Positions 3,001-32,000 of a stretch of DNA of 33,361 nucleotides are shown piece by piece. Origin of the DNA: Amoebophrya sp. A120 (taxonomy: Eukaryota > Protista > Dinoflagellata); assembly GCA_905178155.1 (NCBI GenBank), contig CAJINV010000026.1, positions 168,883-202,243 on the forward strand. Reading direction: 5' to 3'. The notes under the pieces are model-generated. The model searched no databases. It worked only from the letters and a program-made list of their open reading frames with translations, and was not told the DNA's origin. The position numbers and the translations under genes were made by a program. Position 1 is the stretch's first letter; the number at the start of each line of letters is the position of its first letter.

Positions 3001-6000
3001 AACTTTCGTCGTGCAAAGTCGCAGCTTGTAATGCGTGCTACCAATGAGTAGAAAGCGTTTGAAAAATTTGTCATGCTTCACTGCACTTAAAGGCAAACCC
3101 AATCATGACCACTCAGCATTACAAGTTTCCAGACCCAGGCATATTTGCGTTTGATAACCAAACCCCGATCGCGATAAAGGCCGCTTCCCACGCGCCGATT
3201 TTCACAATCGCGATTTCCGCCCGCATATGAATTGCAAAAGTATCGCACTCGTATAAAAAATGCATTACAAATTTTTCCTCAGCATGAGAAATAATGAATT
3301 TGTAATGCTGATTTACCTATACGAAAAAAATTTGTAATGCATGATTGCAATACGAATACGATACTTTTGCACAGGATACCGCAGCCCCCGGTAGTAGCTG
3401 CTGTTTCCGACCAAGACGTGGCGGAATTTCAGCATCATTGACGCGCAGCACCAGATGTAGCAGATCAAAGCGAATAACCGGAGAAAGAGGGTAAGTATCC
3501 TGAGTAAAAACGTCCCCACACCATAGTCAACATGGAAAATCTGCTAGACAAATCAGCCAACTTTGGTTGTTTCGCATGACAAGTTTGTCCCCGTAGTGTA
3601 GTCCTGTTTAGCTAGTTCAGAAGCTGCATCACAGATCTGGCATATGATGCTATTTCTAGCATCACAAATCCCAAAACACGACCAGAAACTGCTTCTCATG
3701 GGTCTCCGCATCATCATCATCATGTAGTGGACACCCGCTCCCAGCGCCACAGGTCAAGGATCCCCTCCCCGGGGGGTGGGCGAGGAAGCACTTTCGGCGA
3801 CCTCAACATACAAAAGCCGAGCGCTACCACGGCAAGTCGCCCCAATAAAAGTACCAACCAGTCGGGAGCTACCCACCACACCTGATCAGCACAGCCCGGC
3901 CAGCTAGCCGAGCCCGACAGCCCAACATACAGAACGATCCAGGACCCGACCCATTTTACGCCATACGTTTTTGTTCTCACGGAAGAGACGACGCACCCCT
4001 TTGGGTTAAGGGGCGAGACTCTCCCTTAAGCCGCAACCCCACCCGGACAGGGGAGGCTGGACCATTTTTTTCAGCATGCAGATTTGCATGACAACTCTGG
4101 GGTGGGGATGTTTTTACACAGGATAGTAAGCGTCCAAAAGTTATCCCCGTTTTTGTTCGGTAGGAAGGGGGCGCACTTGATGAAATTATTGAAGCCGGAA
4201 TTGTACCAAAATTTGCCATCGTTGGTCAAGTTGTCGCAGTATTTGATCGGGTTGTAGTGGGCAAAGCTCGGTGGGATGCCCTGGGTTATCAAGGGAATGT
4301 TCGGTCCGGCCTGGTTTGGCTTCACCTTATCTTCTCCGATCACCACCGTGCCCGACGATCGGACGTACACATCGAAGCTCGCTCTTTGCACCAGCATCTG
4401 CCGCTCGAAGACCCATTCGAAAATGCCTTGATTCCAGTATTGTGACGAATAATCCCCCCCCCGTATCGGACAGCGGACTTGTGATGCTGGATTTGCGTAC
4501 GCATATGCGTTTGTATTGCTAGAAGGGCAAGAGACGCAGCTGTGGCCTTGTTTGCAGGCAATTTGTCATGCTGCTTTCCACTGCCAGTCTCCTCTAGTCA
4601 TGCTGAAGATGCAAGGCCTCTCCACGCCAGCCAGCACTACAGTGTCTACGTCTTTTGCATTCTAGCATGACAAAAGGATTTGCGGTCACAAATCAGCATC
4701 ACAAATTTCCAGTTTGAGTGTGGGGTGGGCAGATTTTTCATTTTGATATCCACCCGATCTCGCATCGCGCCCATAGGTCGAAAATGAAGCAGTATCAAAT
4801 GTAAAGATGTCTGGGTCTGGAAACTTGTGATGCTCTGTGGCGTATCATGAGGAAGCCACAATTGCTGGCTCAGCATGACAAGTTTCTGAGCTCCTAGGTG
4901 TTGCCTATTCTGCATGACAGACTGCGCTTCCGCATCACAGAAAAACGGAGCTCTTGGGTAACGCGCATGACAGATTTAAGAGTCATGCCAGACAAGCATG
5001 ACAGACATGAATTCTTCCAGACCCAGACATTTTTACACTTGATAAGCAGAGAAAGGAAACGACTCCGTTAAACCCGGCTATCCCAGTATGGTGAGCAAAA
5101 ACGTCCCCATCCCAGAGTCAAGATGGGAAATCTGCTACACAAATCGCCCGGCTCTGGCTGTTGCGCATGACAAATTTGGGCTCGCATTGTAGTCGTGCTT
5201 AGCTAGTGCAGCAGCATCACAGATGTAGCATACCATGCGGATTTGAGCATCACAAATATCAGAACACCAATAGAAACTGCTTCTCATGGGTTTCCGCATG
5301 AGAAAGAGAAACATATTCAGCATGCAGATTTGCATTACAACTCTGGGGTGGGGACGTTTTTACAAATGATACCCAGCAGCCCACCCGTGCCACGCGTCGG
5401 AAGTGAGAAAGGAAACGTTGCGGTTTCTTATGGAGGCGTCAGGATCAAAATCGACAAAGTTGAAATAAATAATTTGTGTTGCAAAAAACGGATACCAGTT
5501 GGCGCCCGGTTTTCAAGTGGCGCATGACAAATTGGGGTAGGACCGAGTTTCAGTTTGTCGTGCTGTTTGGGAAAGGAAGACGCTTCTTGTCATGCTACTT
5601 ACTTTATTAGCAGCTATATTTCTACCAGTCCACAGGCTTACAATCTGCCTCACTTGCCTACTCTGCAAGACAGGCACCTTGTGGGTTGCATTCTATGCAT
5701 CACAAGTTTTTCAACTTTCTCAATTTCGGTCCTGACACTCTCATATTTCTCAGGAGTAATTTTACCTCGTCGTCCGTAATGTCGTTCGGTAAATCGTAGG
5801 CCCAGTAATCCTTCCGCTTCTGTCTGGGGATAAACACGGAGAACATCAACCCTCCAACGAGCAAAAACACCCGGAGAATGTCGAAAGTGTATCGGAGAAA
5901 CGTCACAATTGGGTTAAACACTGCCGGCTGGTTCTGGCCGCACGCGTCGTCCTGCGCTGCTTGTCCCGCAGCGGCTCCGGCACCGGTGTCATCCGGCCCG

Positions 6001-7375
6001 TTCCCGGCCTCCTGGCAGGGGGCGGAGACCAAAGTGAGTTATCGCAAGAAAAAACTGTTTCACTGTGAACTTGTGATGCATAGAATGGAACACAGAACTA
6101 TTTGTCTTGCTACACCTGCAAGGCATTGGATTTTTAAGCATGTTTTCTCTTGGAAAGCGCGCATGGCAAATTTTCTGTGTCATCTGTAGCAAACTTGTGA
6201 CGCGGATCTTGCAAAACCATCACAGTGAAACAGATTTTTCGTGGGATATGAGTAGGTACGGCGGTAAAAAGTGCATCTCGAAGAAACTTACCTGCATGAA
6301 GAGCAAGCAGGCGACCAGCCAGGTACCCTTGAACACGCTAGACGGGGTTTCCTCTAGATCCGCCATCATCTCACTCATGTGCACTTCGCCGTAGGAAAGA
6401 ATGTTGTGGATGCAGATGGCTTTTTCTTCGTTGAGAAGCGCCTGCTCCTGCTTCAGAGCGTGTTCTAACTTCCTCCCCCTTTCCGTCTGCTGAAATTCTT
6501 GGTTTTGGAAAATGATTGGCAAATCCGTACCGGGGGTAGACTCGCCGGAAGAGGAGTGATCATCCGCAACCTCGTCGATCTGTTCAAGAAGAACGCGCGT
6601 TGACGTGTCGTTATGGAGCAGCCTCTCATGTTCATCTGGTGGTGGCAGCAAGCTGCTTGCTCCGTTTGTTCGATAGGCACCATTTGCCATGATTATACCA
6701 CTGTCCGGTAGATTGAGGTTAGCATCGTGGTCGAGTTGGGCGCTGTTGGTCGTGGGAAAATAGAGCTCGTCGTTGTCAAACAAGTGATTGTCTTCTCCAG
6801 CGGCAGCGACGGGACGAGGAGGTCCGAAGCCGCGTCCCCCGTTAGCATCCGCAGCCGCATTCATCGTCCGGGCTGCAACCCTGCGGCTGAAGAGCCCTAG
6901 GATTTTTTTCTGTTCCGTTTCCTTTTTGAGCTTGTAAATTTTCTCCTTCAATTTTTGGTCCCGTTCCCTCAAGTCGAAGTACCCGAAGGCGCGCATCAAA
7001 ATTCGACATTTTAGCGTTCCCCGCAAACTCTGGATTGTGAAAATGTCTGGGTCTGGAAGAATGCAAGTTTGTCATGCTTGTCTGGCATGGCTCGAGAATC
7101 TGTGTTGCATAGGCGCGAAAAGGCCCTCTTGCCTGTCATGCAAAACCGCAGTTTGCCATGCGGAATACGTAAAACATGGCAGCCAAAAAATTTGTCATGC
7201 ATAGGTGCGTATTGCAGTGCGTCTACCATTCACTTTTAGCATTACAAGTTTCCAGACCCAGACATTTTTGCAATCCATACCAACTCCGCAACGCACCCCG
7301 CATGCCGTAGAGTAGTAATGCTATGCCGACCAAAAGGGTGAACGAATTTCCAAAATTACGGAGAAAGTCCGTCAT
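1..7375 (-). CDS. Multi-pass membrane protein of unknown function, >=919 aa, 3' end beyond the window; split by 16 TIR/TSD elements and one duplication-derived intron
   Basis: First in-frame ATG at 7375 after TAA at 7478-7480 (MTDFLRNFGNSFTLLVGIALLLYGMRGALRS). Manual removal of each element plus one TSD gives one open frame. Example junctions: PYLL|TLVSAPC, KLLLR|NRNVSFLTSDAWHGWAAG|IAGFNGVVSFLC|FIFDLWARCEIGW|NQGIFEW, NFWTL|TLFLRLF, RGLR|AEIAIVKIGAWEAAFIAIGVW|YRPLGLNDYLLWG|NMPWISLFLF, EYPHC|SLTSKFDY, FEEL|INLPPDELPVGQVLLYKT|NPAYK, YNLRS|AGGTR|GGQHQFIMMSS|GEQDESTR. Spliced length is 2759 nt, with several hydrophobic segments. Confidence 0.88.
79..382. mobile_element. TIR introner, family A
   Basis: TATCAGATGGAAAAATGTCTGGGTCTGGAA...TTCCAGACCCAGACATTTTTGCATTTGATA; TSD CGGAT at 74-78 and 383-387. 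Confidence 0.93.
428..571. other. Intron-like segment made by local duplication of a family B element
   Basis: About 440-559 copies about 611-730. It is bounded by the 12-bp direct repeat CTCTCGTTCCGC (416-427, 560-571), and removing 144 nt restores the frame. Confidence 0.6.
581..729. mobile_element. TIR introner, family B
   Basis: TATCCTGTGCAAAAGTATCG...CGATACTTTTGCAGTTCATA; TSD ACTCC. Confidence 0.92.
1256..1520. mobile_element. TIR introner, family A
   Basis: Family A TIRs (right end GGTA); TSD TGGTT. Confidence 0.92.
1582..1907. mobile_element. TIR introner, family C
   Basis: TATCAGAAGGAAAAATCTCCCC...GGGGAGATTTTTCCTGTCAATA; TSD AGCTC. Confidence 0.92.
1971..2236. mobile_element. TIR introner, family A
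   Basis: Family A TIRs; TSD GGACG; reverse-complement sister of 23170-23428. Confidence 0.93.
2314..2575. mobile_element. TIR introner, family A
   Basis: Family A TIRs; TSD AACAG; opposite orientation to sister 79-382. Confidence 0.93.
2702..2850. mobile_element. TIR introner, family B
   Basis: TATGCACTGCAAAAGTATCG...CGATGCTTTTGCATTGCATA; TSD TCCCC. Confidence 0.92.
2894..3156. mobile_element. TIR introner, family A
   Basis: Family A TIRs; TSD ACCAA. Confidence 0.92.
3226..3378. mobile_element. TIR introner, family B
   Basis: TATGAATTGCAAAAGTATCG...GATACTTTTGCACAGGATA; TSD CCGCA. Confidence 0.92.
3496..4125. mobile_element. TIR introner, family D, with a nested insertion of about 350 bp
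   Basis: TATCCTGAGTAAAAACGTCCCCAC...GTGGGGATGTTTTTACACAGGATA; TSD GTAAG; extra sequence at about 3712-4063 relative to 5087-5371. Confidence 0.9.
4438..4748. mobile_element. TIR introner, family C (degenerate left TIR)
   Basis: Internal similarity to 9484-9794; TAT...ATA ends; TSD TCCAG/TCCAC. Confidence 0.85.
4793..5044. mobile_element. TIR introner, family A
   Basis: Family A TIRs; TSD AGCAG. Confidence 0.92.
5087..5371. mobile_element. TIR introner, family D
   Basis: TATGGTGAGCAAAAACGTCCCCA...TGGGGACGTTTTTACAAATGATA; TSD CCCAG. Confidence 0.92.
5429..5745. mobile_element. TIR introner, family E
   Basis: TATGGAGGCGTCAGGATCAAAATCGACAAAGTTGAAA...TTTCAACTTTCTCAATTTCGGTCCTGACACTCTCATA; TSD TTTCT. 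Confidence 0.9.
6040..6248. mobile_element. TIR introner, family F
   Basis: TATCGCAAGAAAAAACTGTTTCACTGTG...CACAGTGAAACAGATTTTTCGTGGGATA; TSD TGAGT. Confidence 0.92.
7029..7279. mobile_element. TIR introner, family A (left end TCT)
   Basis: Family A TIRs; TSD CAAAC/CCAAC. Confidence 0.85.
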
Positions 7376-7459
7376 TTTCGTAGTGTATCTATTTCTATTT
7401 TTATTTTGGCGAGTTAAAAATAAAAACGACTTGACGGGTTGTACTTGTTGTAAGGGTCG

Positions 7460-8085
7460 TTCCGCTAGATGTAGTACTTACTTTTTACCGAGAGGAAAAC
7501 AAAAGCGCCAAACGGCAGAAGTAGACGAAGGTGAAAGAGTATAAAAAAGATAACTTTGGTGTATTTCGTAAGCTCAACATCCGTAGCCGTAGAGCGGCAT
7601 GTTGTAGGCGGGTAAAGAAAATGCTATATCCTGCAACTGCTGAGGTCAGCACAACTTCCTTTTTATTGCTTTTGAGCGCCGAGGAATGTTATTCACGGTG
7701 ACTCTATTGAATCCACTTGTCGTTCTCTATTTCCATCAAATCCGCACAGGAATTACAATTTCCTGACCGACATATCCTCTTGAGCAGGCGCAGACAGACG
7801 TTTTATCTTCTTCTTGCACGAGCCATTGCCATGGAGGTTCGCAATACAAGGTCTACTGACAGAGGGATGATCCTTCTTCAGGGCAGCAAACCGAATTCGA
7901 TGTCGTGTCGAGGAAAAAAGTTTTCCAACTACTTCTAAGTACTCTAAGAATAAGCACATCAAACAACGACAGATCATGTTCTTGCACGGATGTTGTGTTT
8001 TATCGTGCTGTCGTGCCTATCAATCATTGAGACGTCGTGTTCAGTAGCACAACACCTTCTTCTTCTTCAACCGATCATACCGATT
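7460..8085. repeat. Degenerate dispersed repeat, copy 1
   Basis: Colinear similarity to about 12497-13100, for example the shared GCGCAGACAGACGTTTTATCTTCTTCTTGCAC and CGCAATACAAGGTCTACTGACAGAGGGAT. Confidence 0.8.
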
Positions 8086-8583
8086 TTCAGTGTTGTTCAC
8101 AGGATGTTCACACCTATCTTCATCGGTCAAGATCTTGTTTTTCTTCTTGGTCGTTGCTACTCGGTTTCGCTTTTTTCTGTATCGTGTACATCGTACTACT
8201 ATCGTAGAGTCGCATGATGAAGTCCTTTTTTGGGGAATGTTTTTTTTACTTGTGTCTACCCGTTTTTTTGCCAATCGGCCAGTAGGTTTTAGTTCCGAGA
8301 TTCACACTTAGATAGACCCTGGAACATGTGAAACACACTACAACCTGTACAATGATGTTGTGAGCCGTTGGCTCAAGATTGAGCAAAACAATCAGGAAGA
8401 AGTTTTTTGTCACCCCCGGGCATACGCAATACAAACGTGTTCAAGTGGCAAGATCTACCGATCAACAGAGTTATGAGCCTCCGTATACAGTAAGCCACTT
8501 CTTGCATGCACCCCAAGAACACGAGTAAATCTTACGACATCTTTTCCCAGCAGAATAAGACACTATATGCATCAAAAGTAAAG

Positions 8584-8905
8584 ATGGTGCCACCTGAGAA
8601 TTCTCGTGCCCCGCAGAACAAGATTGGCGGCCTAGCCACCATAAACGCGGCGAAGTACGTGTACCTGGCCGGTTCCAAGGACCAGGTTTGGCAGATCTTC
8701 ACCCGCAAGGCCGGCGCCAGTGCGGTGAACGATCAGAACAAGCACCAGTTCTTGAAGGTCAACGAAGAATACTACTTCTTGAAGCTTGTCGCCAGGGTGG
8801 CGAACAACATCCGGGCCACCGAGGGGAACGTAGACCCGAACGAACTGAGCAAGGAGAATTTGAAGGAGCTGAAGCAGCAGGCGTTCGACCTGCTTGAAAA
8901 CAACG
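8584..8905 (+). pseudogene. Intronless coding-like gene fragment (MVPPENSRAPQNKIGG...QQAFDLLENN)
   Basis: GC3-rich codons for about 107 codons, then runs into a repeat fragment; no homology recognised. Confidence 0.4.
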
Positions 8906-9045
8906 TGTTCAGTAGCACAACACCTTCTTCTTCTTCAACCGATCATACCGATCTTCGAAAACATGTCCATTTCATCTTGTTCACGATTGTGGTTTCTGTC
9001 ACTGTTTCTGATTTGGATTCTACGTACATCACAACTTTAGTGCGG
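8903..9045. repeat. Fragment of the same dispersed repeat
   Basis: CGTGTTCAGTAGCACAACACCTTCTTCTTCTTCAACCGATCATACCGAT is shared with about 8036-8084; similar to about 13046-13210. Confidence 0.75.
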
Positions 9046-10563
9046 CGTTCTCCCTTGTTTCCACCCCCGACCAGCGGAACCCCAGCCACTTGCGTGCCGA
9101 AAGCCACAAACACCAGCGTCTTCGGAGGTTTCGCCACCACTACTTGCCCCGCACCCGCCGCGGCGCCCGAGGTGGTGGGCCCGGCTCCTGCGCCGGCAAC
9201 TGCCAGCGCTTCGAGCTCCGCGACTTGGGGCGCCACGTCAGTTGCAGCTTCCGGTTCTCCGGCAGGCGGAGCACCGCTGTTCAGCCAGAACACCCGCTTC
9301 GCAAACGCCGGATCGTCACCGGCGAACAGCGAGTGCACCGGCTCGCCGGCTGTCCCTGCGACGAGTCTTTCGTACCCACCTCCCGCCAGCGCCGCGTTGT
9401 CGCGCGGAAACCAGGGCAGCGCGGAGCAGATCCGATCGACCGGAAACCAGTCCGGGAAGGGGCAGGAAACCTCTTCTCCCTCGTATCAAACGGAAAAATC
9501 CCCCCTCCCCATATCGAAATGGAAATCTGTGATGCAGGATTTGAGGCACCAAGTCGACTTGTCATGCTAGAAGGCCAAGAGCCGCAGTCGTGGTCTCGTT
9601 TGCAGGCAATTTGTCATGCTGTTTCCCACTCTCAGCTGCCTCCTGTCATGCTGAAGATGCAAGGCTCCCCCACGCCACCCAGCACTACAGTCCGCATATT
9701 TTCCCGCGTAGCATGACAAAGCTGATTTGTGACAACAAATCTGCATCACAGATTTCCGTTTTGATATGGGGAGGGGGGATTTTTTCTTTTGATACCTCGC
9801 TCGGGCAGCCGGGCAGACTGAGCACGCTCCGGACGATGGCGGCGACGTCCCCGCCTCCCGGGAGATAGGGACCGGTCGGCGCGGCGAATATTATCTTGTG
9901 CATGTCGGCTACGGCAGCTGCGTCGGCCGTTGCAGCTGAGCCCATCCAGGGGGACATCATCGCCGCGACATACGGATTGCCCGCCCACCCAAACAGCTTG
10001 CCGCCCGCCGGAAAGACGCCGGGGTCCTCCAGAAACTCGGCTAGGAGGCCAAGAAAAGCGCCCCCCGGGTAGTGGACGTCCAACACGATATGGATGGGGC
10101 GTCGCGCCTCGTCCCGCGGACTCTTTTCGTCCAACGGCACGCCCCAGGCGGCGAGCAGCTGCTGCGCGATCCCACGTCGCTCTTCTTTCAACGGGACTAC
10201 GGCGCGGAAGGCGGAAAAGAACTTCCAAAGCGCGGGCTGCGACACCTCCACGTACCTAGCGACCACCTCTCCGAGAGGCGTTGCGCCGTCGGCCGCTGCT
10301 ACGAAGGGAGCTTTGTCACCAAGGGTTAGCAACTCCATCAGCATTGCCCCGAATGGCGACTCCGACGGCAGACCGAGCCCGAGGGGCTTGGGCTCGAACA
10401 ACGTGGCGATACTGTTGAAATTTTGGAGGATCGTCGCATCGTCGTTGTACCCATGAAAGGCACGCAGCGCGTCCTTAACGGGAGCCATCTGATTCAGCTC
10501 CGTCCCGAACGTCTCCACGAAAACCAGCTTCGGGCGCAGCGGCCTTGGAGTAGAAACGCGAGC
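8943..10563 (-). pseudogene. Gene or gene fragment, Ala/Gly/Pro-rich, with one introner; probably truncated at both ends
   Basis: ORF 9685-10518 joins ORF 8943-9338 in frame after removing 9484-9794 plus one TSD (LPGCPSE|GEEVSCPFPDWFPVDRICSALPWFPRDNAALAGGGYERLVAGTAGEPVHSLF). An upstream TAG lies at 10564-10566, and the 3' end runs into the repeat fragment. Confidence 0.65.
9484..9794. mobile_element. TIR introner, family C
   Basis: TATCAAACGGAAAAATCCCCCCTCCCCATATC...GATATGGGGAGGGGGGATTTTTTCTTTTGATA; TSD CCTCG. Confidence 0.93.
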
Positions 10564-10624
10564 CTAGAAATTTGATTGCGAATGGAGTCTTCACATGAAA
10601 AAAGAAACATAATCTTAGCCGCAA

Positions 10625-10777
10625 ACTACTACTACTCCTACTACTCCTACTACTCCTACTACTCCTACTACTACTCCTACTACTCCTACTACTCCTACTA
10701 CTCCTACTACTCCTACTACTCCTACTACTCCTACTACTCCTACTACTCCTACTACTCCTACTACTACCACTACTACT
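10625..10777. repeat. (TACTACTCC)n microsatellite
   Basis: About 16 near-perfect 9-bp units. Confidence 0.97.
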
Positions 10778-11506
10778 GACTGCTTTATCCGAATATTTTC
10801 TTGGAGGCTTTTTGTAGCCGCAAACTTATACATAAAGATCACAAGAGCAACATCAGATCGGATTTTTGAAGAGAATAATCGGAGTTCGCTGCCGTCGTGT
10901 TCTTCACAAGTTCTGTGGGTACGATCCCGGGATCCAAGTGTTGTCGAATTTCTTCATCAACATTTGAACATTGGTTTCCCTCTCCACTCCGCTGGCTCTA
11001 CGGTTGCTCGCACGGGACCCGGTCCGGAGTGAGCAACACCACCGCGGCAAGAAAACCTTCGCTGTGCATAGGTTCTGTCGCCAATTGACAGTGTTGCATC
11101 AGTTCGCCGCTACGTCGTCCCAACGTATGTAAGTCGTTGTCGGTGATGAAGCCTTAGTAGTACCTTTCGGATACTAAAAAGTACTTCCGGAGGGAAAGAC
11201 AAGTCCCTACTAGGTTGACCGGTCTGCGTCCTCCACGGTACTCCTATTACACTACCTCGCCCCCTGACACCTCCTAACTACCCTAAAGGACGGGAAGCCA
11301 GCCTGGTCTTTGCAATTTTGTGGACTCTAGAGCTAAGTCATCTACTGCTAACTACTAACACAATAAATCCGCTACAACCAGAAGAAAAAGTGATAAGTAC
11401 TCGAAGCCTGCTATCGACACCCAAAATTGCCAGAAAGCCCAACACGGACACCACGGTCGTGGGCACCAGGCGGAAAGGAGTAGCGAAATTGAGCATCGTG
11501 CGTCGA

Positions 11507-12020
11507 TATGCATGGCAAATATGTCTGGGCCTGGAAGATTAAAACTTGTCATGCTAAGTTGTAATGATGATTCAAATCTGTTCGACTCTAAGCCTTAGAT
11601 TGTCCCTTATCGACTCCTATTCTTCTACGTCCCTGGAGTCTCATTATAGCTTGAATAGGTAGTTGTTGGTTTTGGAAAGACGCGGCGGAAGAAGTGCTGT
11701 CGTTTTGTGCTGTTTTTTGGGTGCCTTGCTGCGCCCCTTTTGTTATTTGTCGCCAAAGATTCCGGTCGAGACAGTCGCGAATAATAACATGCTAAGTTGT
11801 AATAATCTGAACGATGCAAAAATCTGTGTTGCGTCAGTACCAAAAGCTGTCCGCTTTCGACCAAGTTGAGAGGGGGTCTCTCATACAGGAAAGGCATGAT
11901 AGAGACCTCAAAGAATCTGTCATCATGCTCAGTCTCGCATTCCAGACCTCATGGGTCATGGAAAACCTGCATGCCAAGTCTTGCAACGTTCCAGACATCC
12001 AGGAGTATTTGCGCTCGATA
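11507..12020. mobile_element. TIR element, family A, with nested insertion
   Basis: TATGCATGGCAAATATGTCTGGG...TATTTGCGCTCGATA; TSD GTCGA. Confidence 0.85.
11566..11787 (+). mobile_element. Nested 222-bp insertion, retroposon-like
   Basis: Flanked by the 16-bp direct repeat CATGCTAAGTTGTAAT (11550-11565, 11788-11803); ends in AATAATAA. Confidence 0.7.
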
Positions 12021-12110
12021 GTCGAAAGCCCGACATTTTTTGACTTGTCGTGTCGCGCGACGGATCACTGGGATTCAAAGCCAAGGTATTTGGCTTTCAG
12101 TTTCTTTCCT

Positions 12111-12389
12111 TCTCCTGAGTAAAAACGTCCCCACCCCAGAGTTGTCATGCAGAATTGCAAGGACAGGAACGTTTGCAATGCGCATCCCCAAGAGAGACAT
12201 TTTCAATCGGATTTCGGGATTTGTAATGCTGCAAACAGGATAAGGGGACGGCTTTGTCATTCGGCTGTGCTTGCTAAGCAGCACTACAATACAGCGAGAA
12301 ACTTGTCATGCGTGATTCTCAAAACTTCTGGATTTGTGTTGCAGAGATTCCAACTTGACTATTGGGTGGGGACGTTTTTACACAGCATA
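12111..12389. mobile_element. TIR element, family D, no TSD visible
   Basis: TCTCCTGAGTAAAAACGTCCCCACCC...GGGTGGGGACGTTTTTACACAGCATA; flanks TTCCT and CAACT differ. Confidence 0.82.
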
Positions 12390-12496
12390 CAACTGGTGGA
12401 AGTGCTACTACTGCTAGTGGTGGTTGCGCGACGAGCCCTTGTACAACTTCTAGGCGGGGTATTGCTTGCTAAATAGGGGTATCGTGCGCTAATTTT

Positions 12497-19327: not shown

Positions 19328-20093
19328 CAGAACACAGAAATTGATGTATACGAAAAAAACAACACAGGACATGATGAAAACGAATGTACATACTGAATGA
19401 CTGCCCTCTTCTGGTAAGTATAATACTCTACTTGATACTACGGCTCTGGTTCCTCCAGGAAAAAGAAATAAAGTAGTACGATTTGTGAGAATGAAATGTG
19501 GCGGAAACAGCCGATATAACTTATGGAATTTGATTTCGACAAAGAAAAGGAAAACAATAACAAATGAATGCTGTACTTGAGAAAAAGAAAAAACCTGCTG
19601 TATTCCACCAAAACGTCACTGTGTTCTGCAAGCGGAAGCTGCAGTTCCGACCGTATTTAAGTTTATCAAAAGGTCACAGCTGCTCAAATGTGCTCCGGCT
19701 CCTGCGGCGCGTCATGCTCCGGCTCTTCCGACGCGTAGGTCTCCAGGTCATAAGACGGGTCCTGCATCTTTTGCAGCCTCCGCCCGCCATTGTCCGCTGA
19801 CCGAGAGGACTTCTGACGCCCCGCCCGATAGCTGCGGGTACCCGCGGGCACCTTGGCCGCGTCGTAGCTGTGTTGATGTTATATTTTTTTTTGTCATGCA
19901 ACAAAACCAGTATAATATTAAGAGACAGGACTTTGTCATGCTCGAAGAACTACGAGTACGACATAATTTTTACACGTATATAATCAGCCGATTGCTATAA
20001 TACCTGTCCTCGTACCCCCCAGCGTAATACCCGGTTTGCACGTCGTCCAACGCCTGCGGCTTGCGCTTCTTGCGGGAAGCCTCGCCCAGAGAG
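19328..20093 (-). pseudogene. 5'-truncated paralogous copy of the 3' end and 3' flank of the CTL-like gene, lacking three introners
   Basis: Colinear with about 22745-24488. It encodes LGEASRKKRKPQALDDVQTGYYAGGYEDS-YDAAKVPAGTRSYRAGRQKSSRSADNGGRRLQKMQDPSYDLETYASEEPEHDAPQEPEHI* (stop 19684-19686) with a GT-AG intron at 19868-20003. Confidence 0.85.
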
Positions 20094-21251: not shown

Positions 21252-21872
21252 ACCCCCCAGCGTAGTACCCAGTTTGCACGTCGTCCAACGCCTGCGGCTT
21301 GCGCTTCTTGCGGGAAGCCTCGTCCAGAAATTCCCAAGTCTGAAAGGCCTGGTCCGCCAGTATGGCCAGCCTTCTTGCAGCCTGTTCCGGGGATCGCACA
21401 CACCTGCCCAGCATTTGCACAACCCGCACGGCAGCCCGGGAGAGATCACTGTCCGGGAGGTTGCGGCCGGTTACGGAAGAAAGGTCCATCCACGGGACCT
21501 GGCACAGGACGACGGCGGCGAGGTTTTCCGGGGGGTTCCATCCGTTCTTCACTGTTAATACACTGCAGGCAGCATATCGCGTTCTCAACTCCAGACGTAC
21601 GGCATATCGCGTTCTCAACTGTTAATACACTCTCAACCTGTGGTCTGCGGTAGCGGTCATCCGCGCCAACTTCGATCCCGGCGGAGACCCAAGGGACCGC
21701 TTGCATGGCCAATCAATGTCTGAAAAACCCTGGCCGAACGAAAAGAAGAGAGCGGCTTGCTCGCGGGAACTTTCGCTTCAGCGTCATATTTGAGGCGTGT
21801 GTGTGTGAGTGTGTGCGCAGCTGCGGCATCTCGCTGCTCAAGATTGCGCAGCGACAAGCTCTATATGCAAAC

Positions 21873-21957: not shown

Positions 21958-22041
21958 AGTGTGTTCTATTTTTCCTATAGCTCCTTCTTGCCGAGCCAGA
22001 TCCAGAACGCCGAAATTGATGTGTACGAAAAAAACAACACA

Positions 22042-22745
22042 TTTCGTCCAGATCCTATGCATTGCAAATACCGATCCGGGTCTGGAAGGATGGAACTTGT
22101 CATGGTACCTTTGGATTCGTTTTAAAATGTGTATTACTGCAGATATGTCTGGCTCTGGAAAAGTCGGGGCTTGTCATGCACATTTTGCATGAGCCCTCAG
22201 GTCTGTGATGCTGGTGCTAGCATCACAAATTTTCTGAGAGCTTCTTCATGCTAATTACGCATGACAAATGCCCTCTCCACGTGCCACGAGCTGACTCCTC
22301 TTGCTGCTCATGCAACACAGATATTTTTAGAATCCGCAGACACCATTACAAGTTCCACTCATCCAGACCCAGACATTTTTGCATTTGATAGACGTCCTCC
22401 CCCGACAAAAGAACTCGGGGATTTTTTACGCATTGGTGATTGCTCATATCGCACGAAAAAACTGTTTCACTGTGAACTTGTGATGCATAAAATGGAACAC
22501 AGACGCATTTGTCTTACTACACATGCAAGACAATGGATTTCTAGCTGTGTTTTCCCTTAGGATCCCCGCATGACAGATTTTCAGTGTCATGCGTGTCAAA
22601 CTTGTGATGCAGATTTCGCACAACCACCACAGTGAGCCAGTTTTTTCGTGGGATAGCTCATGTCAAGAGTGTGGTCCCAATAGCACCAATCGCACCCGAT
22701 GCCGTTCGAAAGGACAGCAGAATAATAGTTACAGCGATACGCGCC
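22042..22745 (-). pseudogene. Mosaic of unspliced CTL-gene fragments
   Basis: 22042-22135 is identical to 26181-26274; 22136-22390 is the body of a family A element; 22391-22745 is a diverged copy of 30065-30419. Confidence 0.85.
22447..22655. mobile_element. TIR element, family F (duplicated with its flanks from the 30121-30329 site)
   Basis: Family F TIRs; TSD GCTCA. Confidence 0.9.
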
Positions 22746-23098
22746 AGAACGCCGAAATCGATGTGTACGAAAAAAACAACACAGGGCATGATGAAAACGA
22801 ATGTACATACTGAATGACTGCCCTCTTCTTGTAAGTATTACTTATTACTACGACTCTGGTTCGTTCCTCTTCGTTTGAAGAAAAATACGGTTTGTGAGGA
22901 TGAAATGTGGCCGCGGAAACATACGGTTTGTGAATTTATGGAATTGCGATAAATAAAAGGAAAACGAATAACAAATGAATGCTGCAATTGAGAAAAAGAA
23001 AACTAAACCTGTACATAATCCATCAAAACGTCCGCATGTTCTGCAAGCGGAAGTTGTAGTTCATCCAACCGTGACGTTGATCAAAAGGTCACAGCCGC

Positions 23099-26000
23099 TC
23101 AAATGTGCTCCGGCTCCTGCGGCGCGTCATGCTCCGGCTCTTCCGCCGCGTAGGTCTCCAGGTCGTAAGTATCAACTGCAAAAGTGTCGGGGTCTGGGAG
23201 AGTCGGGGCTTGTCATGCACATTTGCATGACCCGTGAGGTCTGTGATGCTGGTGCTAGCATCACAGATTTTTTGAGAGCTTCTTGATGCTAGTTACGCAT
23301 GAGAAATGCCCTCTCCGCGTGCCAAGAACTGACTCCTCTTGCTGCACATGCAACACAGATCTTTTTAGAATCCGCAGACAGCAGTACAAGTTCCACTCTT
23401 CCAGACCCAGACATGTTCCCCCTGCATAATAAGACGCGTCCTGCATCTTTTTCAGCCTCCGCCCGGCATTGTCGGCTGACCGAGAGGACTTCTGTATCAA
23501 CTGTAAAAATGTCTGGGTCTGGAAGAATGTGAACTTGTCATGCAGGTTTTCTATGACCCTTGAGGTGTGGAATGCGGGACCTAGCATGACAGAGGCTGTG
23601 AGGTCTCTTTCATGCCTATTCTGCATGAGAAACTGCCTTTAAACTTGTTCAAAAGTGGACCTCTTTTGGTAATCATGCAACACAGATTTTTGCATGATTC
23701 GGATTTAGCATGACAAGTTGCAATCTTCCAGACCCAGACATTTTTGCAATCCATATTCTGCCGCCCCGCCCGATAGCTGCGGGTACCCGCGGGTACCTTG
23801 GCAGCGTCGTAGCTGTGTTGATGTTTTTTGTTTATCACGCATGACCAGTATCTTAAGCTTAACAGACGGAATTTCGATTTTCTCATGCTCGAACGACATA
23901 TTTGTACATCATGTCAGATTGTTGACATTGACTGTAGCGGACTCCTATATATACCTGTTCTCGTACCCCCCAGCGTAGTACCCGGTTTGCACGTCATCCA
24001 ACGCCTGCGGCTATCAAATGCAAATATGTCTGGTGTTTTGTCTGGAAACAAGACCTTGATACAGCACGGGGAAGAGAACGACTTCAACTTTTTGAAGAAA
24101 CAAAAGTAAAAGAGAACTACGCTGATGCACTATGTAGAGAGAGACTAAAAGCATGCTATGATGTCCACCGGTGGAACTAACTACTGCTACTTATACTGTC
24201 ATGTCTGGGTCTGGAAGAATGCAATATGTCATGCAGATTTTCCATGACCCATGAGGTCTGAAATGCGGGGCCTAGTATGACAAAGTCTGCCAGGTCTCTG
24301 TCATGCCTATCCTGCATGAGAAATCCCCTCCCAACTTGGTCGAAAGTGGACAGCTTTTGGCACTGATGCAACACAGATTTTGGCATGATTCAGATTGAGC
24401 ATCACAACTTACTGTGGTCTTCCAGACCCAGACATATTTGCAATGCATAGCGGCTTGCGCTTCTTGCGGGAAGCCTCGTCCAGAGAGGTTATAACCCGCT
24501 CAGGTGTTACAATCTCAAACGTTACAATAGAATCTGGAATTTGTGTTGCAAGAAGTGCATGACCTACCCTACTCCCACAGGATTGCGCATGACAAGTTCT
24601 GGAGTCCCAATCCGCACTACAATCTGGCGAAATTTGTATTGCAAATAGTGGAACGCTGTCCGAGTCTGTCATGTTGGTCATGCAAGACAAATCTCAGATT
24701 CTATTGTAACGTTTGAGATTGTAACACCTGAGCAGGTTATAGAGGTGCGTCCGCGTTTCTGAGATCCAGATCTGTTTCCACGACCTTGCGCGTCGTAGGA
24801 AGATGAACCGTAGCCTGCGTAGTGGTCGTCGGCGTAAGATGAACCGTGGTTATAATTCCAATCGTCGTCATGCCAGTCGTCATCCCCTCCACCAACTTCA
24901 ATCTCCGCCATTTCAATTGCCTCCCCTTCCGCGTCGTGAAATTTGTGGTCTGGCGACGCCGTTGTAGAAGAATTATTTGTCGGGTCAGCAAATGTTGATC
25001 CCATCGGCTTCGGCAGGTTGTTTTTCATGTTTTCGTTCGCAGCTTTCATGTCGTAGGACACCAAGTCATTGGTCGTCATGATGCCCTCCCCGGTGGCGCC
25101 CGGGGCGTCCGCGGGCCCGAGGATATCGAATGCAAATATGTCTGGGTCTGGAAACTTGTGATGCTAAAATGTGCATGATGAAAGCACTTCCTCATGCAGG
25201 AAAGCATGACAAGCTTGCAGAACGCTTTCTCGTACGAACTCCGCATGAGAAACTGCGTTTCTGTCTGACATGAGACGAGGCTGCCACTTTATTTGTTGGT
25301 CATCATGCAATACAGATTTCACAGGAATGTAAGAACAGCATTACAAGTTCCAACTTTCCAGACCCAGACATATTTGCAATGCATAGAGGAGACCCTTGAC
25401 GGATTTGCGCTGGTCTCGTCCCGCCTCCTTGCCCTCGGACCGGAGAAGGGCGTCGTATCGTGTGTAAAAACCACAGGGCCCAGGAGCACACCAGAGTAAT
25501 CTTCAAGATAGGACGTTTGCTACATAAATCAGCAGGCTTTGGCTGTTGCGCATAACAAGTTCTTTGGGTACACTCTGGTGTAGTTGTAGTGGTCGTGTTT
25601 GGCTAGTACATTAAAGCCGCATCACAAAATAGAATCTAGCTGCTCCCTATCCTGATTAGAGCAGGACAAAGTTCTTGTACCAAGCAGCATGGGAAAGTGC
25701 TGCTCATGAAATTGCGTGCATGAGAAACATTTTAGGCATGCAGATTTGCATGACATCTAACTCTGGGCAGGTCGTGTGGGCCCCGGTTTTTCCTCAGGAT
25801 ACGTGGCAGTACAAAATCGCGTTGGTACTGTAAACGATCAGCATCTGCACAAACTGGAAGATGACGGCACAGGCACAGCCGACAAAGATTCCGGTAATAT
25901 CAAATGCAGAAATGTCTGGGTCTGGAAACTTGTGATGGTGCAAGTCAGTGATCAATAAGTGAACTGTAATGCGCAGCCGAGCATGACAAGTTTTTTTCGT

Positions 26001-29000
26001 GCTTCTGTGCCGCCAATTCCGCATGAGAAACTGCGTTTTTGCATGACACGCGAGAGAGGCTGTTCGTGGCCACGCAATACAGATTGCAGAGTCATGCCAG
26101 ACTAGCATGTCAAATCTGGCAATCTTCCAGACCCAGACATATTTGCCTTTGATATGTAAACAAACCGTGCAAAACGTTGTTTTCGTCCAGATCCTATGCA
26201 TTGCAAATACCGATCCGGGTCTGGAAGGATGGAACTTGTCATGGTACCTTTGGATTCGTTTTAAAATGTGTATTGCATGAACAGCAAAAGACATCCAGTT
26301 TTTTGCTACGCGGAGAGGGCATTTCTCGTGCGGTATGGGCATCAGAAAGTCCTCGCAGAGTCTGTGATGCTACGGCTTGCATCACAGACATCATCGGGCA
26401 GGCAAAATCTGCATAACAAACTCCAGCAAGCTTCCAGACCCAGACGTATTTGCATTTGATAAATCCTTGATGGCATTCCAGTCGGCGATATCAAATGTAA
26501 AAATGTCTGGGTCTGGAAGATTGCAACTTGTGATGCTGTCTCTACATTCTAAAAAAATCTGTATTGCATGAGTAGCAAACGGAATGCAATTTTTGCTACG
26601 CTGAGAAGACATTTGTCATGCGGAATAGGCATCAAGAAGCCCTCAAAAAATCTGTATTGCTAGGGTATGCATCACAGACATCATGGCTCATGCAAAACGT
26701 GCATGACAAGTGTCAGAATCTTCCAGACCCAGACATTTTTACATTTGATACGCGATCAGGATGAGCAGGATCAAGCCGAAGATGGGCCCAAAGCCGAGGC
26801 CGATCACGAACATTATCGCAAGAAAAAACTGTTTCACTGTGAACTTGTGATGCAGAAAATGGAGCACAAAACTATTTGTCTTGCTACACCTGCATAGAGC
26901 ATTGGAGTTTCAACCGTGTTTTCCCTTTTGGAATCGCGCATGGCAAATTTTCTGTGTCATGTGTATACAAACTTGTGATGCGGTTCTTGCAAAATCATCA
27001 CAGTGGAACAGTTTTTTCTTGCGATAAACATCCACATAAGGATGATGAGAACGAAGAGAACAAACACGCTCACGTCAAAATTGTCGTTTCCGAAGACGCC
27101 CTGTTCGATTTGGTTATCCATGTAGACCCAAGCCATCATGCCCTATCAAACGCAAAAATGTCTGGGTCTGGAAGATTGCGAGATTTGTCATGCTTGTCTG
27201 GCATGACCAAAAAGTTTGTGATGCGTGTCCAAGGAGGGACCCTTTTGCCTGTCATGCTTGTCATGCGAAAAACGCAACACAAAGAAGCGCAGATATTTAT
27301 CATGCTTGCCTGTGCATTACAGAGCATTCACTGTTCCCAACGCAGCATTACAAGTTTCCAGACCCAGACATATTTGCAATCCATATGCCCATGCCGGTCG
27401 CAACCAGCACCCGGTGCACCGTAAAAGTGGACGTCAGTGCGTAGTCCTGCACGGCTAAACCCAGCACGCCCTGGTTGCTATCGTCCTGAAACAGGTTAAA
27501 CACTTTCATCGCCGTGGCGCAAATCGGGCCGGAGTGAATCGTATGAACTGCAAAAGTATCGTACTCGCATAAATGCATTACAGATTTCCTCAGCATGAGA
27601 AAAAAGATTTGTAATGCGGGTTTACCTTGACAAAAAGATTTGTAATGCATGATTGCAATACGAGTACTATACTTTTGCACAGGATAAATCGTGTGACCGA
27701 CGACCAAGTACTTGGTGAAGGGTTCGACGAGACACTTGATTCCCATCCAGAGCTATCAAATGTAAAAGTGTCTGGGTCTGGAAGGTTGGAAGACTTGTCA
27801 TGCAGGTTTTCCATGACGCTTGAGGTCTGTAATACATGACCCAGCATGACAGCTTCTTCTCGACCTCTATCATGCCTCGTCTGCATGAGAAAGTCCCTCT
27901 CAGCTTGGTCAAAAGAGGAGAGCTTTTGGTAATCATGCAACACAGATTCTTGCACTATCGAGAATTAGCATGACAGGTTGCATTCTTCCAGACCCAGACA
28001 TTTTTACAATCCATAAGAGCGCGAAGCACAACAAGTCCGTGCAGCAAAACCCGAAATTCCAACAACAGCAAAGAATCGGGTTTGCGGCCACGTTCTCCGC
28101 CCGCCGGCGGATCTCGTACGTCAACGAAACAATGATGGACGCGAACATGTTAACCCCGGCAGAGGTCGTGTACGCCATGGAAAACCCGACGGCTCCGGGG
28201 TTGCGAATCGCCGGTGTGTTTCCGTACAGCTTTGCTGCGGTTCCCGAGTGGAAGGTCCAGTTGGCGACGCCGGTTGTGCAAATGATGAGAATCACCTGGC
28301 GCAGAAAGATTACCAGCGGAAAGAAGACGAGCCAGAGCATGGTCTGACAGAAAACACTCGCGCTCGTTGTCTTCAGCTCACACAGGCTGGCGCTGTTGTT
28401 TGTGGGGTTCGCGTGCCGAATAAGCGTTCCAGTATACCGCCACTCCACCCAATTTCCGGACTCGATGAACCCAACGAGCCAAAAGGCGAGAAAACCGCCG
28501 AAAACCAAAAACTGCAGCATGGAAAACAATATCACGTCTTTGGCTTTGTTCAGACACGACATGGCCTTGCTCGCACTGTCGGCCGCTTCGGAGACTTGCT
28601 TGAAGTAAAGAATGGTCACCACGGTGACTACCACAGCGGGAATCATATCAAATGCAAATATCGATCTGGGTCTGAAAGATTGCAGGAGTTTGTCATGTAT
28701 CTACTTCTGGATCACGCAACTGGTCCCTCGTGCTGCACGCAAAAGCATCACAGGATTTGCGCACGCCTCCTGATGTCTATCCCACATGAGAAATCCCCTA
28801 TTTGCGTAGCAAGAAATGGGAAGCTTTTGGTGCTTCTGCAATACAGATTTTTGTCTAGTCCAGACTTAGCATGACAAGTTCCAATTCTTCCAAACCCAGA
28901 CAGATTTCCAACTGATAAATCAGCAGGTACCATAAATGTTTCGGGTCGACGCAGAATAGCGCAATCATGGCGATCACACCCAGGGCGATGGTGCCAAAAA

Positions 29001-32000
29001 TCATCACCTTCGGGGCGTAGTAAAGCGCCAACAGCCACAAAACCAGCAGCCAGGTGAAGGCGAGAAAAGAGATCAGCGGCACCTCCCACTGCTCCGCCAT
29101 CGTTTCCCACACCGTCTTCCGATCGTCGCTCGCGCTCAGTTATCCTGTGCAAAAGTATCGCACTCGTAGTAATCGCAATTATGCATTACAAATCGTTTTC
29201 CTAAGGTCAATCAGCATGAGAAATTTCATTTGTAATGTTTCGCAAATTTGTAATGCGAGTTCTACTAGTACGATACTTTTGCACCGCATATCAGCCGCCG
29301 CCGCAAGTGCCGCGCTTCTTGCAGCAGCCGCTTCGCCTGCAGCCGTTTTTGCAAGTGCCGCTCTTCCAGTTCCGCCCGCTGTTGTAGTTCTTCCTCCCCG
29401 TACGAACTAGGCAGGAACTTGAAATCTTCATGGCTTTCGAGTTCGTGCTATGCATTGCAAATATGTCTGGGAGGTCTGGAATAAACTTGTAATGCTGAGT
29501 TGCGTAGCATGAGGAGGCCAAGAATGATGGCCCAGAATGACAAGTTTCCGAGCTTCTAGGTGTAGTTGCCTACACTGCATGACAAACTGCGTTTCAGCAT
29601 CACAGAAAAATCGGCCTTTTGAGTAATCGGTGCATGACAGACTTGAGAGTCTTGCTAGCCGAGCGAGACAAATTTCGCATTCTTCCAGGAGACCGCCCAG
29701 ATCCATATTTGCAGTTGATACGTGCACTTGTTGCAGTAATTGGCGGATTCTCAAATGGCCTGCATCTCCGCGCTCCTGCAAATCGTCTTCCTCACCACCA
29801 GGAGCGACGTTATGCGTTGCAAATATGTCTGGGTCTGGAAACTTGTGATGCTAATTTATGAATTGCGGGGACACGGCAATAGGCAGCCACGCATGACAAG
29901 TTTCTGGGCTCCTATGTGTTTCGCTTTCCGCATGACAAACTACATTTTTGCATGACAGGCAAGAGGGTCTTTTGCTGCTCACGCATTACAGGTTCAAGAA
30001 TCATGTGAGACAAGCATGACAAACATCTGCATTCTTCCAGACCCAGACACTTTTGCATTTGATAGACGTCCTCCCCCGACAAAAGAACTCGGGGATTTTT
30101 TACGCATTGGTAATTGCTCATATCGCACGAAAAAACTGTTTCACTGTGAACTTGTGATGCATAAAATGAAACACAGAAGCATTTGTCTTGCTACACATGC
30201 AAGACAACGGATTTCTAGCTGTGTTTTCCCTTAGGATTCCCGTATGACAGATTTTCAGTGTCATGCGTAACAAACTTGTGATGCAGATTTCGCACAACCA
30301 CCACAGTGAACCAGTTTTTTCGTGGGATAGCTCATGTCGAGAGTGTAGTCCCACTGGCACCAATCGCACCCAATGCCGTTCGAAAGGACAGCAGCATAAT
30401 AATTACAGCGGTACGCGCCCATCGCACCTCCCCCGGGGCAGATGCAACCCGTCGACGGTGCTATGACAGTGCACAACTCCTCCTCCCCCTCATTTGTCGT
30501 GCGAAATCCCAACTCCAGTCGCTGCATTGTGGCACTGTGTGCATGACAAAAAATTCCGGAGGGGGCCAAAAAGTACTACATGATCAGGCACTACGTAGAT
30601 TTGTCCATGCATAGGCTCCACATGTGGTGCGCGGGTGTTTGTATTGCTGTTCATGTCATACATAGAAGTGGGAGGGGGAGTTGTGCCCTCTCATAGGTGC
30701 GACCGTGCTTGTAGAAGTCGAGGCTGAATCGGGAACGCATTGCATCGTAAGGAAAAATCCCCCCGCCCCATATCGAAAAGGAAATTTGTGATGCTGATTT
30801 GTGGCCACTGCGTACACAGCAAACGGCACTCCTGCGGCGCATTGTAAGTACAGCGAGTCTGTCACGCGTTTTCGCATATGCCAGACTTGCTTCTCATGCT
30901 CAGTTGCTAGCCGGATGCGTACCCGAGTGGGCGTAGAACATGCCGCCACGCTCTTGCTGCAATAGATGAAAGCTCCTTTGTGTACACAAATCCAGCAACA
31001 CAAATTGTCTTTTGAATATGGGGTAGGGGCTTTTTTCACGTTGATACATTGGTAAAGGTTAGGTGAGTTACTGCGTGTGTAGCCGATATTACAGCCTCCA
31101 CACCCGACTCCGTTCGTCAGCGTGCCGTAGACACTTCTGCACTATCAAATGCAAAAATGTCTGGGTCTGGAAGAATGCAACTTGTGATGCTGCATTAGCA
31201 TTTGGATGTCTAAAACTAAAATTAAAAGAATTGTGTTGCATGAGCAGCAAAAGGAGTCTAATTTTTGCTACGCGGTAGTAGTAGTAGTCACCATTTGACT
31301 CCTGGCGGGTCGGCGTTAGAACAGATTTAGCCTCTGCGAATACAGCCTGGGCGTTAGAACAGATTTAGCCTCTGCCAATACCACCTGGGCGCTAGAACAG
31401 GTTTAGCCTCTGCCAATGCCCCTAGGTGGATATCCGATCCACTTCCTAACTACCACCCGGCCGCAACCGCAATACCGCTATCGATTGCTTACGCGTATCT
31501 ACGGCCAGTGGGCGTGACGTGTGGCAGACCCATCTTACCATCCAAGCCCGCAAGCAAGGCGGAGCTTCGGAGTAGCCTTGAAGGGTTGGTCTTACAAACT
31601 TGTTCGCAATCATACTTCTGTGTACGCGCAGAGGGCATTTGTCATGCGGGATAGGCATCAAGAATCCCTGAAAAAAATTGTGACGCTAGGGCATGCATCA
31701 CAGACATCATGGCTTATGCAAACCGCGCATGACAAGTCTCAGAATCTTCCAGACCCAGATCGATTTTTGCATTTGATAGGCACACACTGCTAGTGAGCGG
31801 AGTTCCATTCGGACAGGTGCAGATACCATAACCGGGACTGCTAACGCATTGCATCGTGGCCTGACTCACTGCGTAGTTGGGATCGCAGTAGTCGCACCCG
31901 ATGCCGTTTGTCAGCGAGCCCATGCTGGTGTACATGCCGCAAAATGAGTTATCCTGAGTAAAAACGGGGCCCGCACACCAGAGTCAAGATGGGATGAAAT

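What the first reader, a model, noticed from the sequence alone, without database searches (positions are those of the whole stretch)
4433..31783. Mismatches between the two TSD copies are mostly synonymous and avoid the centre
Nine of the 40 TSD pairs differ by one base. Seven are synonymous in the rebuilt frame: GGG/GGC (4438), TAT/TAC (23170), ACA/ACC (25898), TTG/CTG (26195), GCG/GCC (26489), CGG/CGA (29141) and CGA/AGA (31143). Only 7029 (W/L) and 25456 (H/D) are not. Seven fall at TSD positions 1 or 5 and none at position 3. A freely mutating intronic copy should give mostly non-synonymous differences. Either both copies can end up in the product (variable junction), or the excised copy is constrained by the mechanism. 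This also indicates that the genes stayed under protein-level selection after insertion. The sample is small.
Basis: partly seen in the sequence, partly recalled or inferred. Interest (0 to 1): 0.75.

Follow-up and report, generated by a model that had tools for sequence, protein, structure and literature searches.

The report
Mismatched repeats reveal fixed splice register
In a marine parasite whose genes are riddled with transposon-derived introns, the mostly silent differences between the two short repeats flanking each intron are likely ordinary selection on the copy kept in the mRNA, but they show where these unusual introns are cut: the sites that could be read all fit one fixed offset from the hairpin, which likely needs only a U at the second intron position.

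Summary
The nine mismatches and their codon pairs are real. The window is Amoebophrya sp. A120 DNA (its rebuilt protein equals a named A120 protein). The elements are the published TAT…ATA introners. In 342 framed elements of a sister genome, 53 of 103 mismatches are silent, and 13 of 74 single mismatches sit at the centre. So '7 of 9' and 'centre avoided' are largely small-sample effects, though mild constraint on the excised copy is not excluded. Spliced contigs show no sign of a variable junction. All seven directly read sites fit one register: repeat positions 1-4 come from the upstream copy and position 5 from the downstream copy. The intron is thus N-TAT…ATA-NNNN. The T that becomes intron +2 never varies (0 of 380), while its mirror base does (11 of 380). 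G+1 and a final AG are not needed. The source paper left the border unresolved, although its Table S4 lists only NT-NN sites. Minor junction variants could not be tested.

The parts
23102..32758 (-). Choline-transporter-like (PF04515) gene, residues about 193-1199 of protein P0001; 23 introners plus one GT-AG intron; its 5' part lies beyond the element end at 32761
   Evidence: PF04515 37.6 bits, cut-off 26.9; 100% to a protein named Amoebophrya sp. A120; 1002 of 1002 residues identical after 4|1 splicing
531..7477 (-). Second gene: 928-codon stop-to-stop frame across 15 introners; no family above cut-off for the two exons scanned
   Evidence: 6 spliced joints between 4432 and 7280
4433..4753 (-). 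Element 4438-4748 with repeats; mismatch at gene-orientation position 1 (GGG kept, GGC excised); intron 4434-4749 in the 4|1 register
   Evidence: joint 4432>4749, 4 letters slide, runs X3 and X6
7024..7284 (-). Element 7029-7279; mismatch at position 4 (Trp kept from the upstream copy, Leu excised); sets the lower bound of the cut; 3' end reads AGA instead of ATA
   Evidence: joint 7023>7280, 1 letter slides, X3 and X6; X1 covers both repeat copies with no other letter
23165..23433 (-). Element 23170-23428; mismatch at position 5 (TAC kept from the downstream copy, TAT excised); the kept base is the derived one
   Evidence: joint 23165>23430; element-free duplicate carries the excised version
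25451..25806 (-). Element 25456-25801; mismatch at position 2 (His kept from the upstream copy, Asp excised)
   Evidence: joint 25450>25802, 3 letters slide; His in P0001
25893..26159 (-). Element 25898-26154; position 5 (ACC kept, ACA excised)
   Evidence: joint 25893>26156
26190..26466 (-). Element 26195-26461; position 5 (CTG kept, TTG excised)
   Evidence: joint 26190>26463
26484..26755 (-). Element 26489-26750; position 5 (GCC kept, GCG excised); folds as a long terminal hairpin
   Evidence: joint 26484>26752; fold z=-11.4
29136..29295 (-). Element 29141-29290; position 1 (CGG/CGA); upstream copy probably kept
   Evidence: indirect only: the X3 contig piece ends at 29135 (table 8); the joint row was not shown
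31138..31783 (-). Element 31143-31778; position 5 (AGA/CGA); kept base not read
   Evidence: joint not among the rows shown
23813..23954 (-). Canonical GT-AG intron of 142 nt (donor begins GTATAT), position within the 4-letter slide approximate
   Evidence: joint 23812>23955
19687..20092 (-). Element-free duplicate of the gene's 3' end: empty sites for elements 23170, 23495 and 24012
   Evidence: 94-97% identity across the empty sites

Best explanation
These are transposon-derived introns with true 5-bp target-site duplications; at the seven sites read, the mRNA keeps repeat positions 1-4 from the upstream copy and position 5 from the downstream copy, so the silent skew likely comes from ordinary purifying selection on the kept bases while the excised bases drift nearly freely. 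Shown: the duplication arises on insertion (empty sites), the element is present in DNA-like contigs and absent from spliced contigs, one 4|1 register fits all read sites, and the first T of TAT is invariant only at the intron's 5' end. Inferred: the intron is N-U-A-U…A-U-A-N-N-N-N, the terminal hairpin holds the two ends together, and a U2-type spliceosome that has relaxed G+1 and the final AG but kept U+2 cuts at a fixed distance from the base of the stem (1 nt on the 5' side, 4 nt on the 3' side). Because the inverted repeat is symmetric, an insertion in either orientation and at any target would splice out and restore the frame. The window's 7 of 9 and empty centre are a small-sample excess.
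For: Register: joints at 23170, 25456, 25898, 26195, 26489 and 4438, 7029, each seen in runs X3 and X6 (two samples, one study); 7029 forces at least 4 bases from upstream and the four position-5 sites force at most 4. The rebuilt protein matches P0001 at 1002 of 1002 residues. X1 shows depth 0 at all six spliced joints. Terminal asymmetry: 0 of 380 changes at the 5' T against 11 of 380 at the mirror A (P=0.001); 0/1, 0/6 and 0/4 in three subsets, on both strands; no other of 25 terminal positions differs between the ends at P<0.1; 9 of the 11 have perfect repeats. Farhat 2021 Table S4 lists nine predominant A120 sites, all NT-NN, and nine A25 sites, all TT-NN. No base preference in the repeat: only 10 of 380 would be GT-AG. 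Selection: 53 of 103 silent in the sister set, P=0.12 against the one-copy null at a transition weight of 3 (31 transitions to 20 transversions in the first set). The kept copy is the derived one at 23170. Empty sites: three in the window duplicate and three in L156; L155 and L156 carry their own elements at sites empty in the window.
Against: Each site gives only a bound, so a register that varies between sites is not excluded; the lower bound of 4 rests on one site (7029). X3 and X6 are assembled contigs whose RNA nature is a tool guess, and contigs drop minor variants. One sister site (L018:6484, position 3) has an A120 orthologue residue that matches the downstream copy (Gln), where 4|1 would keep Pro; the region has an indel. 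The other informative site in that gene (8387) fits 4|1. The silent share exceeds the one-copy null in some settings (P=0.0004-0.13 when the kept copy tolerates 20% of amino-acid changes; P=0.008 with no transition bias). The window itself is still at P=0.012-0.076. No lariat, snRNA or protein evidence for the spliceosome was obtained. The statistics come from a sister genome about 96% identical in exons, not from A120 itself; 174 frames rest on a codon model that agreed with long-ORF frames in 183 of 187 calls.
Confidence: 0.72

Rival explanations
1. The register is fixed, but the excised repeat bases are also moderately constrained (the two copies splice better when they match, or bases next to the hairpin matter), which raises the silent share above the one-copy expectation.
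For: Estimated rate of the excised copy relative to silent sites 0.23-0.8; the upper limit is below 1 in two of six settings. Third-position mismatches 64 of 607 against 39 of 1103 at first and second positions. In the first sister set position 1 had 0 of 84 against 16 of 84.
Against: 50 non-silent mismatches and 26 double mismatches persist. The position-1 pattern did not repeat in the held-out set (3 of 88 against 8 of 86, with the excess moving to position 4). No pairing excess between the two bases flanking the stem (41 observed, 51 expected). With a GC-to-AT mutation bias the null fits (P=0.31-0.41).
Confidence: 0.3
2. Variable junction: either copy's base can enter the mRNA, so both copies are under protein selection.
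For: 7 of 9 silent in the window. Farhat 2021 Fig. 3 legend calls the splice sites variable relative to the hairpin. One sister site agrees with the downstream copy. Minor variants would be invisible in contigs.
Against: Seven read sites fit one register in two samples. In the 3.5-kb lay at a 2% threshold no alternative joint or other letter at a repeat appeared among the rows shown (15 joints were not shown). Non-silent mismatches occur at every repeat position in the sister set (9, 8, 11, 12, 10).
Confidence: 0.08
3. Same 4|1 register, but made by a non-spliceosomal route: a structure-specific endonuclease and ligase acting at the base of the hairpin, or a polymerase jump between the direct repeats.
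For: No G+1, no AG and no repeat motif; strong hairpin; U1 not found in A120 (PMC7789003); Euglena non-conventional introns also use a fixed offset from a stem (PMC12501133 abstract passage).
Against: The single invariant base falls on intron +2, as in GU, and the same geometry with real G and AG occurs in Polarella class 12 introners (bioRxiv 2020.10.14.339549). Mismatches at positions 2-4 are tolerated, which a template jump would disfavour. Unspliced contigs exist at about 3% of spliced depth (9.6 against 333), though DNA could explain them.
Confidence: 0.22

Closest known systems
Amoebophrya sp. A120 introner elements / non-canonical introns (Farhat et al. 2021, PMC7789003)
   Same: Same organism by protein identity; inverted repeat starting TAT, seven looser bases, then AAA; 3-5 nt direct repeats over the borders; hairpin; about 240 nt; strain-specific positions.
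   Different: The sections I read report no clear dinucleotide signature and leave the border unknown; they contain no analysis of repeat mismatches ('synonymous' occurs 0 times in the main text). The 4|1 register and the invariant U+2 are not stated there, though Table S4 and the remark on four repeat bases upstream of the 5' end agree with them. Figures could not be seen.
Polarella glacialis class 12 introner-like elements (Roy et al., bioRxiv 10.1101/2020.10.14.339549)
   Same: 5-nt duplication; in the NNAGG form the donor is the last repeat base plus the first element base, and the acceptor is repeat positions 3-4: the same 4|1 geometry.
   Different: Class 12 needs G and AG from the target and works in one orientation. 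The A120 elements show no target preference, and their phase bias is not predicted by target sequence.
Euglena non-conventional introns (PMC12501133)
   Same: Hairpin-closed introns with flanking direct repeats that blur the junction; the register was found from non-slidable introns.
   Different: Signature N3CDG…CH'GN5-6|R, so offsets of 3 and 5-6 nt and a purine at the exon start; here 1 and 4 nt with U+2.
Fritillaria borealis MITE-derived non-canonical introns (seen only through the review PMC11282704)
   Same: Introns with terminal inverted repeats and target duplications removed despite non-GT-AG ends.
   Different: Ends are mostly AG-AC and AG-AT, and spliceosome involvement has support there; it is untested here.

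Membership tests
A120 introner elements (Farhat 2021) | Terminal inverted repeat starting TAT + about 7 nt + AAA | tested here: met
   logo of 580 termini
A120 introner elements (Farhat 2021) | 3-5 nt direct repeats across the exon/intron borders | tested here: met
   42 of 42 window elements with at least 4 of 5 matches
A120 introner elements (Farhat 2021) | Removed from transcripts as non-GT-AG introns | tested here: met
   joints in X3 and X6 (RNA status guessed by the tool), four raw RNA reads of X10 at one joint, none in X1
A120 introner elements (Farhat 2021) | Repeated through the genome, strain-specific positions | tested here: met
   X1 depth over element ends thousands of times the unique depth; empty sites against the sister genome
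A120 introner elements (Farhat 2021) | Host is Amoebophrya sp. A120 | tested here: met
   100% identity to a protein so named; 1002 of 1002 residues
MITE (non-autonomous TIR transposon) | Target-site duplication made on insertion | tested here: met
   single copy of the 5-mer at empty sites
MITE (non-autonomous TIR transposon) | Cognate autonomous transposase | not tested
   no genome held; PMC12130899 passages mention Ginger-like candidates in A120
U2-type spliceosomal intron | GU donor | tested here: not met
   only U+2 is fixed; +1 is G in 56 of 206
U2-type spliceosomal intron | AG acceptor | tested here: not met
   AG in 20 of 206
U2-type spliceosomal intron | Lariat with a branch adenosine; dependence on snRNAs | not testable with these tools
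   no usable raw reads of this strain (X9, X10, X11 gave almost no exon coverage)
DNA-level excised sequences (ciliate IES-like) | Joined form present in DNA | tested here: not met
   X1 depth 0 at six spliced joints; one run of unrecorded kind, contigs only

The most novel reading that the evidence does not exclude
A120 has a spliceosome without U1 that reads almost no sequence: it takes the base of any TAT…ATA hairpin as a ruler, cuts 1 nt before and 4 nt after it, and checks only U+2. This makes every 5-bp-duplicating insertion a precise intron in either orientation. A25 (TT-NN sites, repeat starting TTA) would share the same N-U-A donor code, so one minimal code would underlie tens of thousands of apparently signal-free introns in both strains.
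Probability: 0.4. Interest if true: 0.78.

Novelty: already known. Interest (0 to 1): 0.45.

Why it matters
What remains useful is the mapped cut. How Amoebophrya splices the more than 60% of its introns that lack GT-AG has been open since 2021, partly because direct repeats hide the junction. Mismatched repeats remove that ambiguity. They give a register (4|1) and one polar, invariant base (U+2), which turn the question into direct tests: where the lariat 5' end must lie, which base to mutate, and what U6 should pair with. Six literature searches found no paper stating this register for Amoebophrya. The library lacks most subscription journals, and I could not see the figures of the source paper.

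Tried and rejected
These are biased to contigs carrying one element family. The viral collection gave 0 matches. No run on record as RNA holds the stretch. Raw RNA runs X9, X10 and X11 gave almost no exon reads (132, 7 and 0 laid), so minor junction variants were not testable. A first codon model trained on unfiltered ORFs mis-called 13 of the 38 window frames and was dropped. A striking position-1 pattern (all 18 mismatches at third codon positions) failed in a held-out set and is treated as chance. Pairing between the two bases that flank the stem was not enriched. Excised bases show no drift towards GT or AG, and no direction by GC content. Polarising sister mismatches with orthologous proteins: the L052 search found nothing; the representative search gave the contig's own ORF and two distant proteins that were uninformative; L018 gave one site for and one against. 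Earlier scan notes: none found. PMC13326754 does not mention Amoebophrya.
Full report
What the window is. The window holds 42 elements of 145-636 bp that begin TAT, end ATA (three have one changed end base) and are flanked by 5-bp direct repeats. Removing each element with one repeat opens two minus-strand frames, of 961 codons across 21 elements and 928 codons across 15. The first encodes a choline-transporter-like protein (PF04515 above cut-off). An exon of it is 100% identical to a 1199-residue protein named Amoebophrya sp. A120, and the rebuilt gene matches that protein at 1002 of 1002 residues. The ends fit the published description of A120 introner elements (PMC7789003, section 11; logo). 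The repeats are true target-site duplications: a duplicate of the gene's 3' end at 19687-20092 lacks three elements and has one copy of each 5-mer. In a sister genome about 96% identical in exons, three window elements are absent, one is shared, and other sites carry elements that the window lacks.

The observation. Against random mutation 7 of 9 silent has P=0.001-0.007. That null is wrong, because one copy stays in the mRNA and adds silent changes while rejecting most others; the expected silent share is then 39-49% and the window's P is 0.023-0.076 (0.012-0.044 if the kept copy tolerates a fifth of amino-acid changes). An empty centre has P=0.17 and seven outer sites P=0.033.

A larger sample. 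A motif scan gave 166 loci (536 kb after merging) of the sister genome. Elements were called from their termini alone, without looking at the repeats: 443 pairs, of which 23 with two or fewer matching bases were dropped; 320 were perfect, 74 had one mismatch and 26 had two. Single mismatches fall 17/13/13/19/12 across the five positions, so the centre is not avoided. Frames were set for 168 elements by long open frames and for 174 more by a codon model that agreed with the long frames in 183 of 187 calls; 78 stayed unframed. The two sets gave 25 of 51 and 28 of 52 silent, together 53 of 103. This is far above random mutation (P<=1e-4). It is compatible with the one-copy null under the observed transition bias (P=0.12; 0.31-0.41 with a GC-to-AT bias) and above it in other settings (down to P=0.0004). 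The excised copy's rate relative to silent sites is 0.23-0.8, with intervals reaching 1 in four of six settings. Mild constraint is therefore possible and strong constraint unlikely. A position-1 pattern seen in the first set did not repeat in the second.

Where the cut lies. Contigs of two runs that the tool guesses to be RNA (X3, X6; two samples, one study) skip the elements, while a DNA-like run (X1) shows none of the six spliced joints tested and confirms both repeat copies at 7029. In gene orientation the kept base comes from the upstream copy at position 1 (4438), 2 (25456, His) and 4 (7029, Trp), and from the downstream copy at position 5 (23170, 25898, 26195, 26489). Site 29141 agrees indirectly through a contig piece boundary; 31143 was not shown. 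One register fits all: four repeat bases stay with the upstream exon, and the intron is N-TAT…ATA-NNNN. At 23170 the element-free duplicate carries the excised version, so the kept copy is the one that changed, silently. Limits: each site is only a bound, the lower bound rests on 7029, contigs hide minor variants, and independence of these runs from the transcripts behind the annotation is not established. One sister site points the other way (L018:6484) and one agrees (8387).

Independent support for the register. It puts the first T of TAT at intron +2. Across 380 oriented elements that T never varies, whereas the mirror A at the 3' end varies in 11 (P=0.001), in all three subsets and on both strands; the other 24 terminal positions show no asymmetry, and the variant ends have good repeats. 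No repeat position shows a base preference; G at +1 occurs in 56 of 206 and AG at the end in 20 of 206. Table S4 of the source paper lists nine predominant A120 sites, all with T second, and nine A25 sites, all TT-NN, although the text reports no clear signature and an unknown border.

Mechanism. Shown: insertion with a 5-bp duplication; removal seen in spliced contigs; one register at the sites read; polar constraint on U+2; a strong hairpin for the one element folded (z=-11.4). Inferred: the hairpin joins the ends and a U2-type spliceosome with relaxed G+1 and AG cuts at fixed distances from the stem. That U+2 is the least dispensable donor base in spliceosomal introns is recalled knowledge, not from a call. 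Polarella class 12 introners use the same geometry with real G and AG, which makes the spliceosomal reading the more likely one. An endonuclease-ligase route is not excluded, given the missing U1 and the fixed offsets of Euglena introns.

Papers seen. PMC7789003: passages, sections 10, 11, 16 and 25 in full, supplement legends and Table S4 rows, no figures; Figs 3 and S19-S25 may show the register. PMC11282704, PMC12130899, PMC12501133 and bioRxiv 10.1101/2020.10.14.339549: passages only; their supplements were not seen. PMC13326754: term search only. The Fritillaria paper was seen only through the review.

Verdict. The system is already known. The lasting result is the 4|1 register with an invariant U+2, which I did not find stated in six searches.

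Noticed in passing
380 oriented elements (window and loci L001-L166): Under the 4|1 register 186 fall between codons, 85 after the first base and 109 after the second (P=3e-10), repeated in all subsets. Target sequence predicts only about 35% for the first class, unlike the explanation given for Polarella. Unexplained.
   Followed up: partly
window 19687-20092 and 21253-21328: Element-free DNA duplicates of the transporter gene's 3' end; the first keeps the canonical intron region, so it is probably a pre-insertion duplicate and not a cDNA copy.
   Followed up: partly
window 22013-22800: Patchwork of post-insertion duplicates of gene pieces (similar to 26166-26250 and 30060-30420) including a copied element with the same repeat at 22447 and chimeric ends near 22056-22390.
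   Followed up: no
L155 and L156 (contig JACKZZ010010628.1): Orthologue of window 24865-25449 and 27124-28177; most elements differ in position between the two genomes despite about 96% exon identity, so insertion is fast and recent.
   Followed up: partly
window 14100-18770: Satellite of about 15 copies of a 296-bp unit in two subtypes, about 63% alike.
   Followed up: no
window 10625-10780: Array of a 9-bp unit rich in ACT/CCT.
   Followed up: no
window 8946-10563 (minus strand): 434-codon frame across element 9484 with a competing 352-codon frame on the plus strand; no Pfam match for its larger exon.
   Followed up: no
window 12111-12389 and 439-558: A decayed element whose flanks match at only 2 of 5 bases, and a partial duplicate of element 581-729, both outside the two long frames' element lists.
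   Followed up: no
window 32761: An element end that interrupts the transporter gene at about residue 193; its other end was not called inside the window.
   Followed up: no
window 23813-23954: The one canonical intron begins GTATAT, matching the N-TAT start of the introners at +2 to +4; a single example.
   Followed up: no
loci L046:17921, L004:2123: A few elements have the 5-mer separated from one end by about three extra bases, suggesting imprecise insertion or later small insertions.
   Followed up: no
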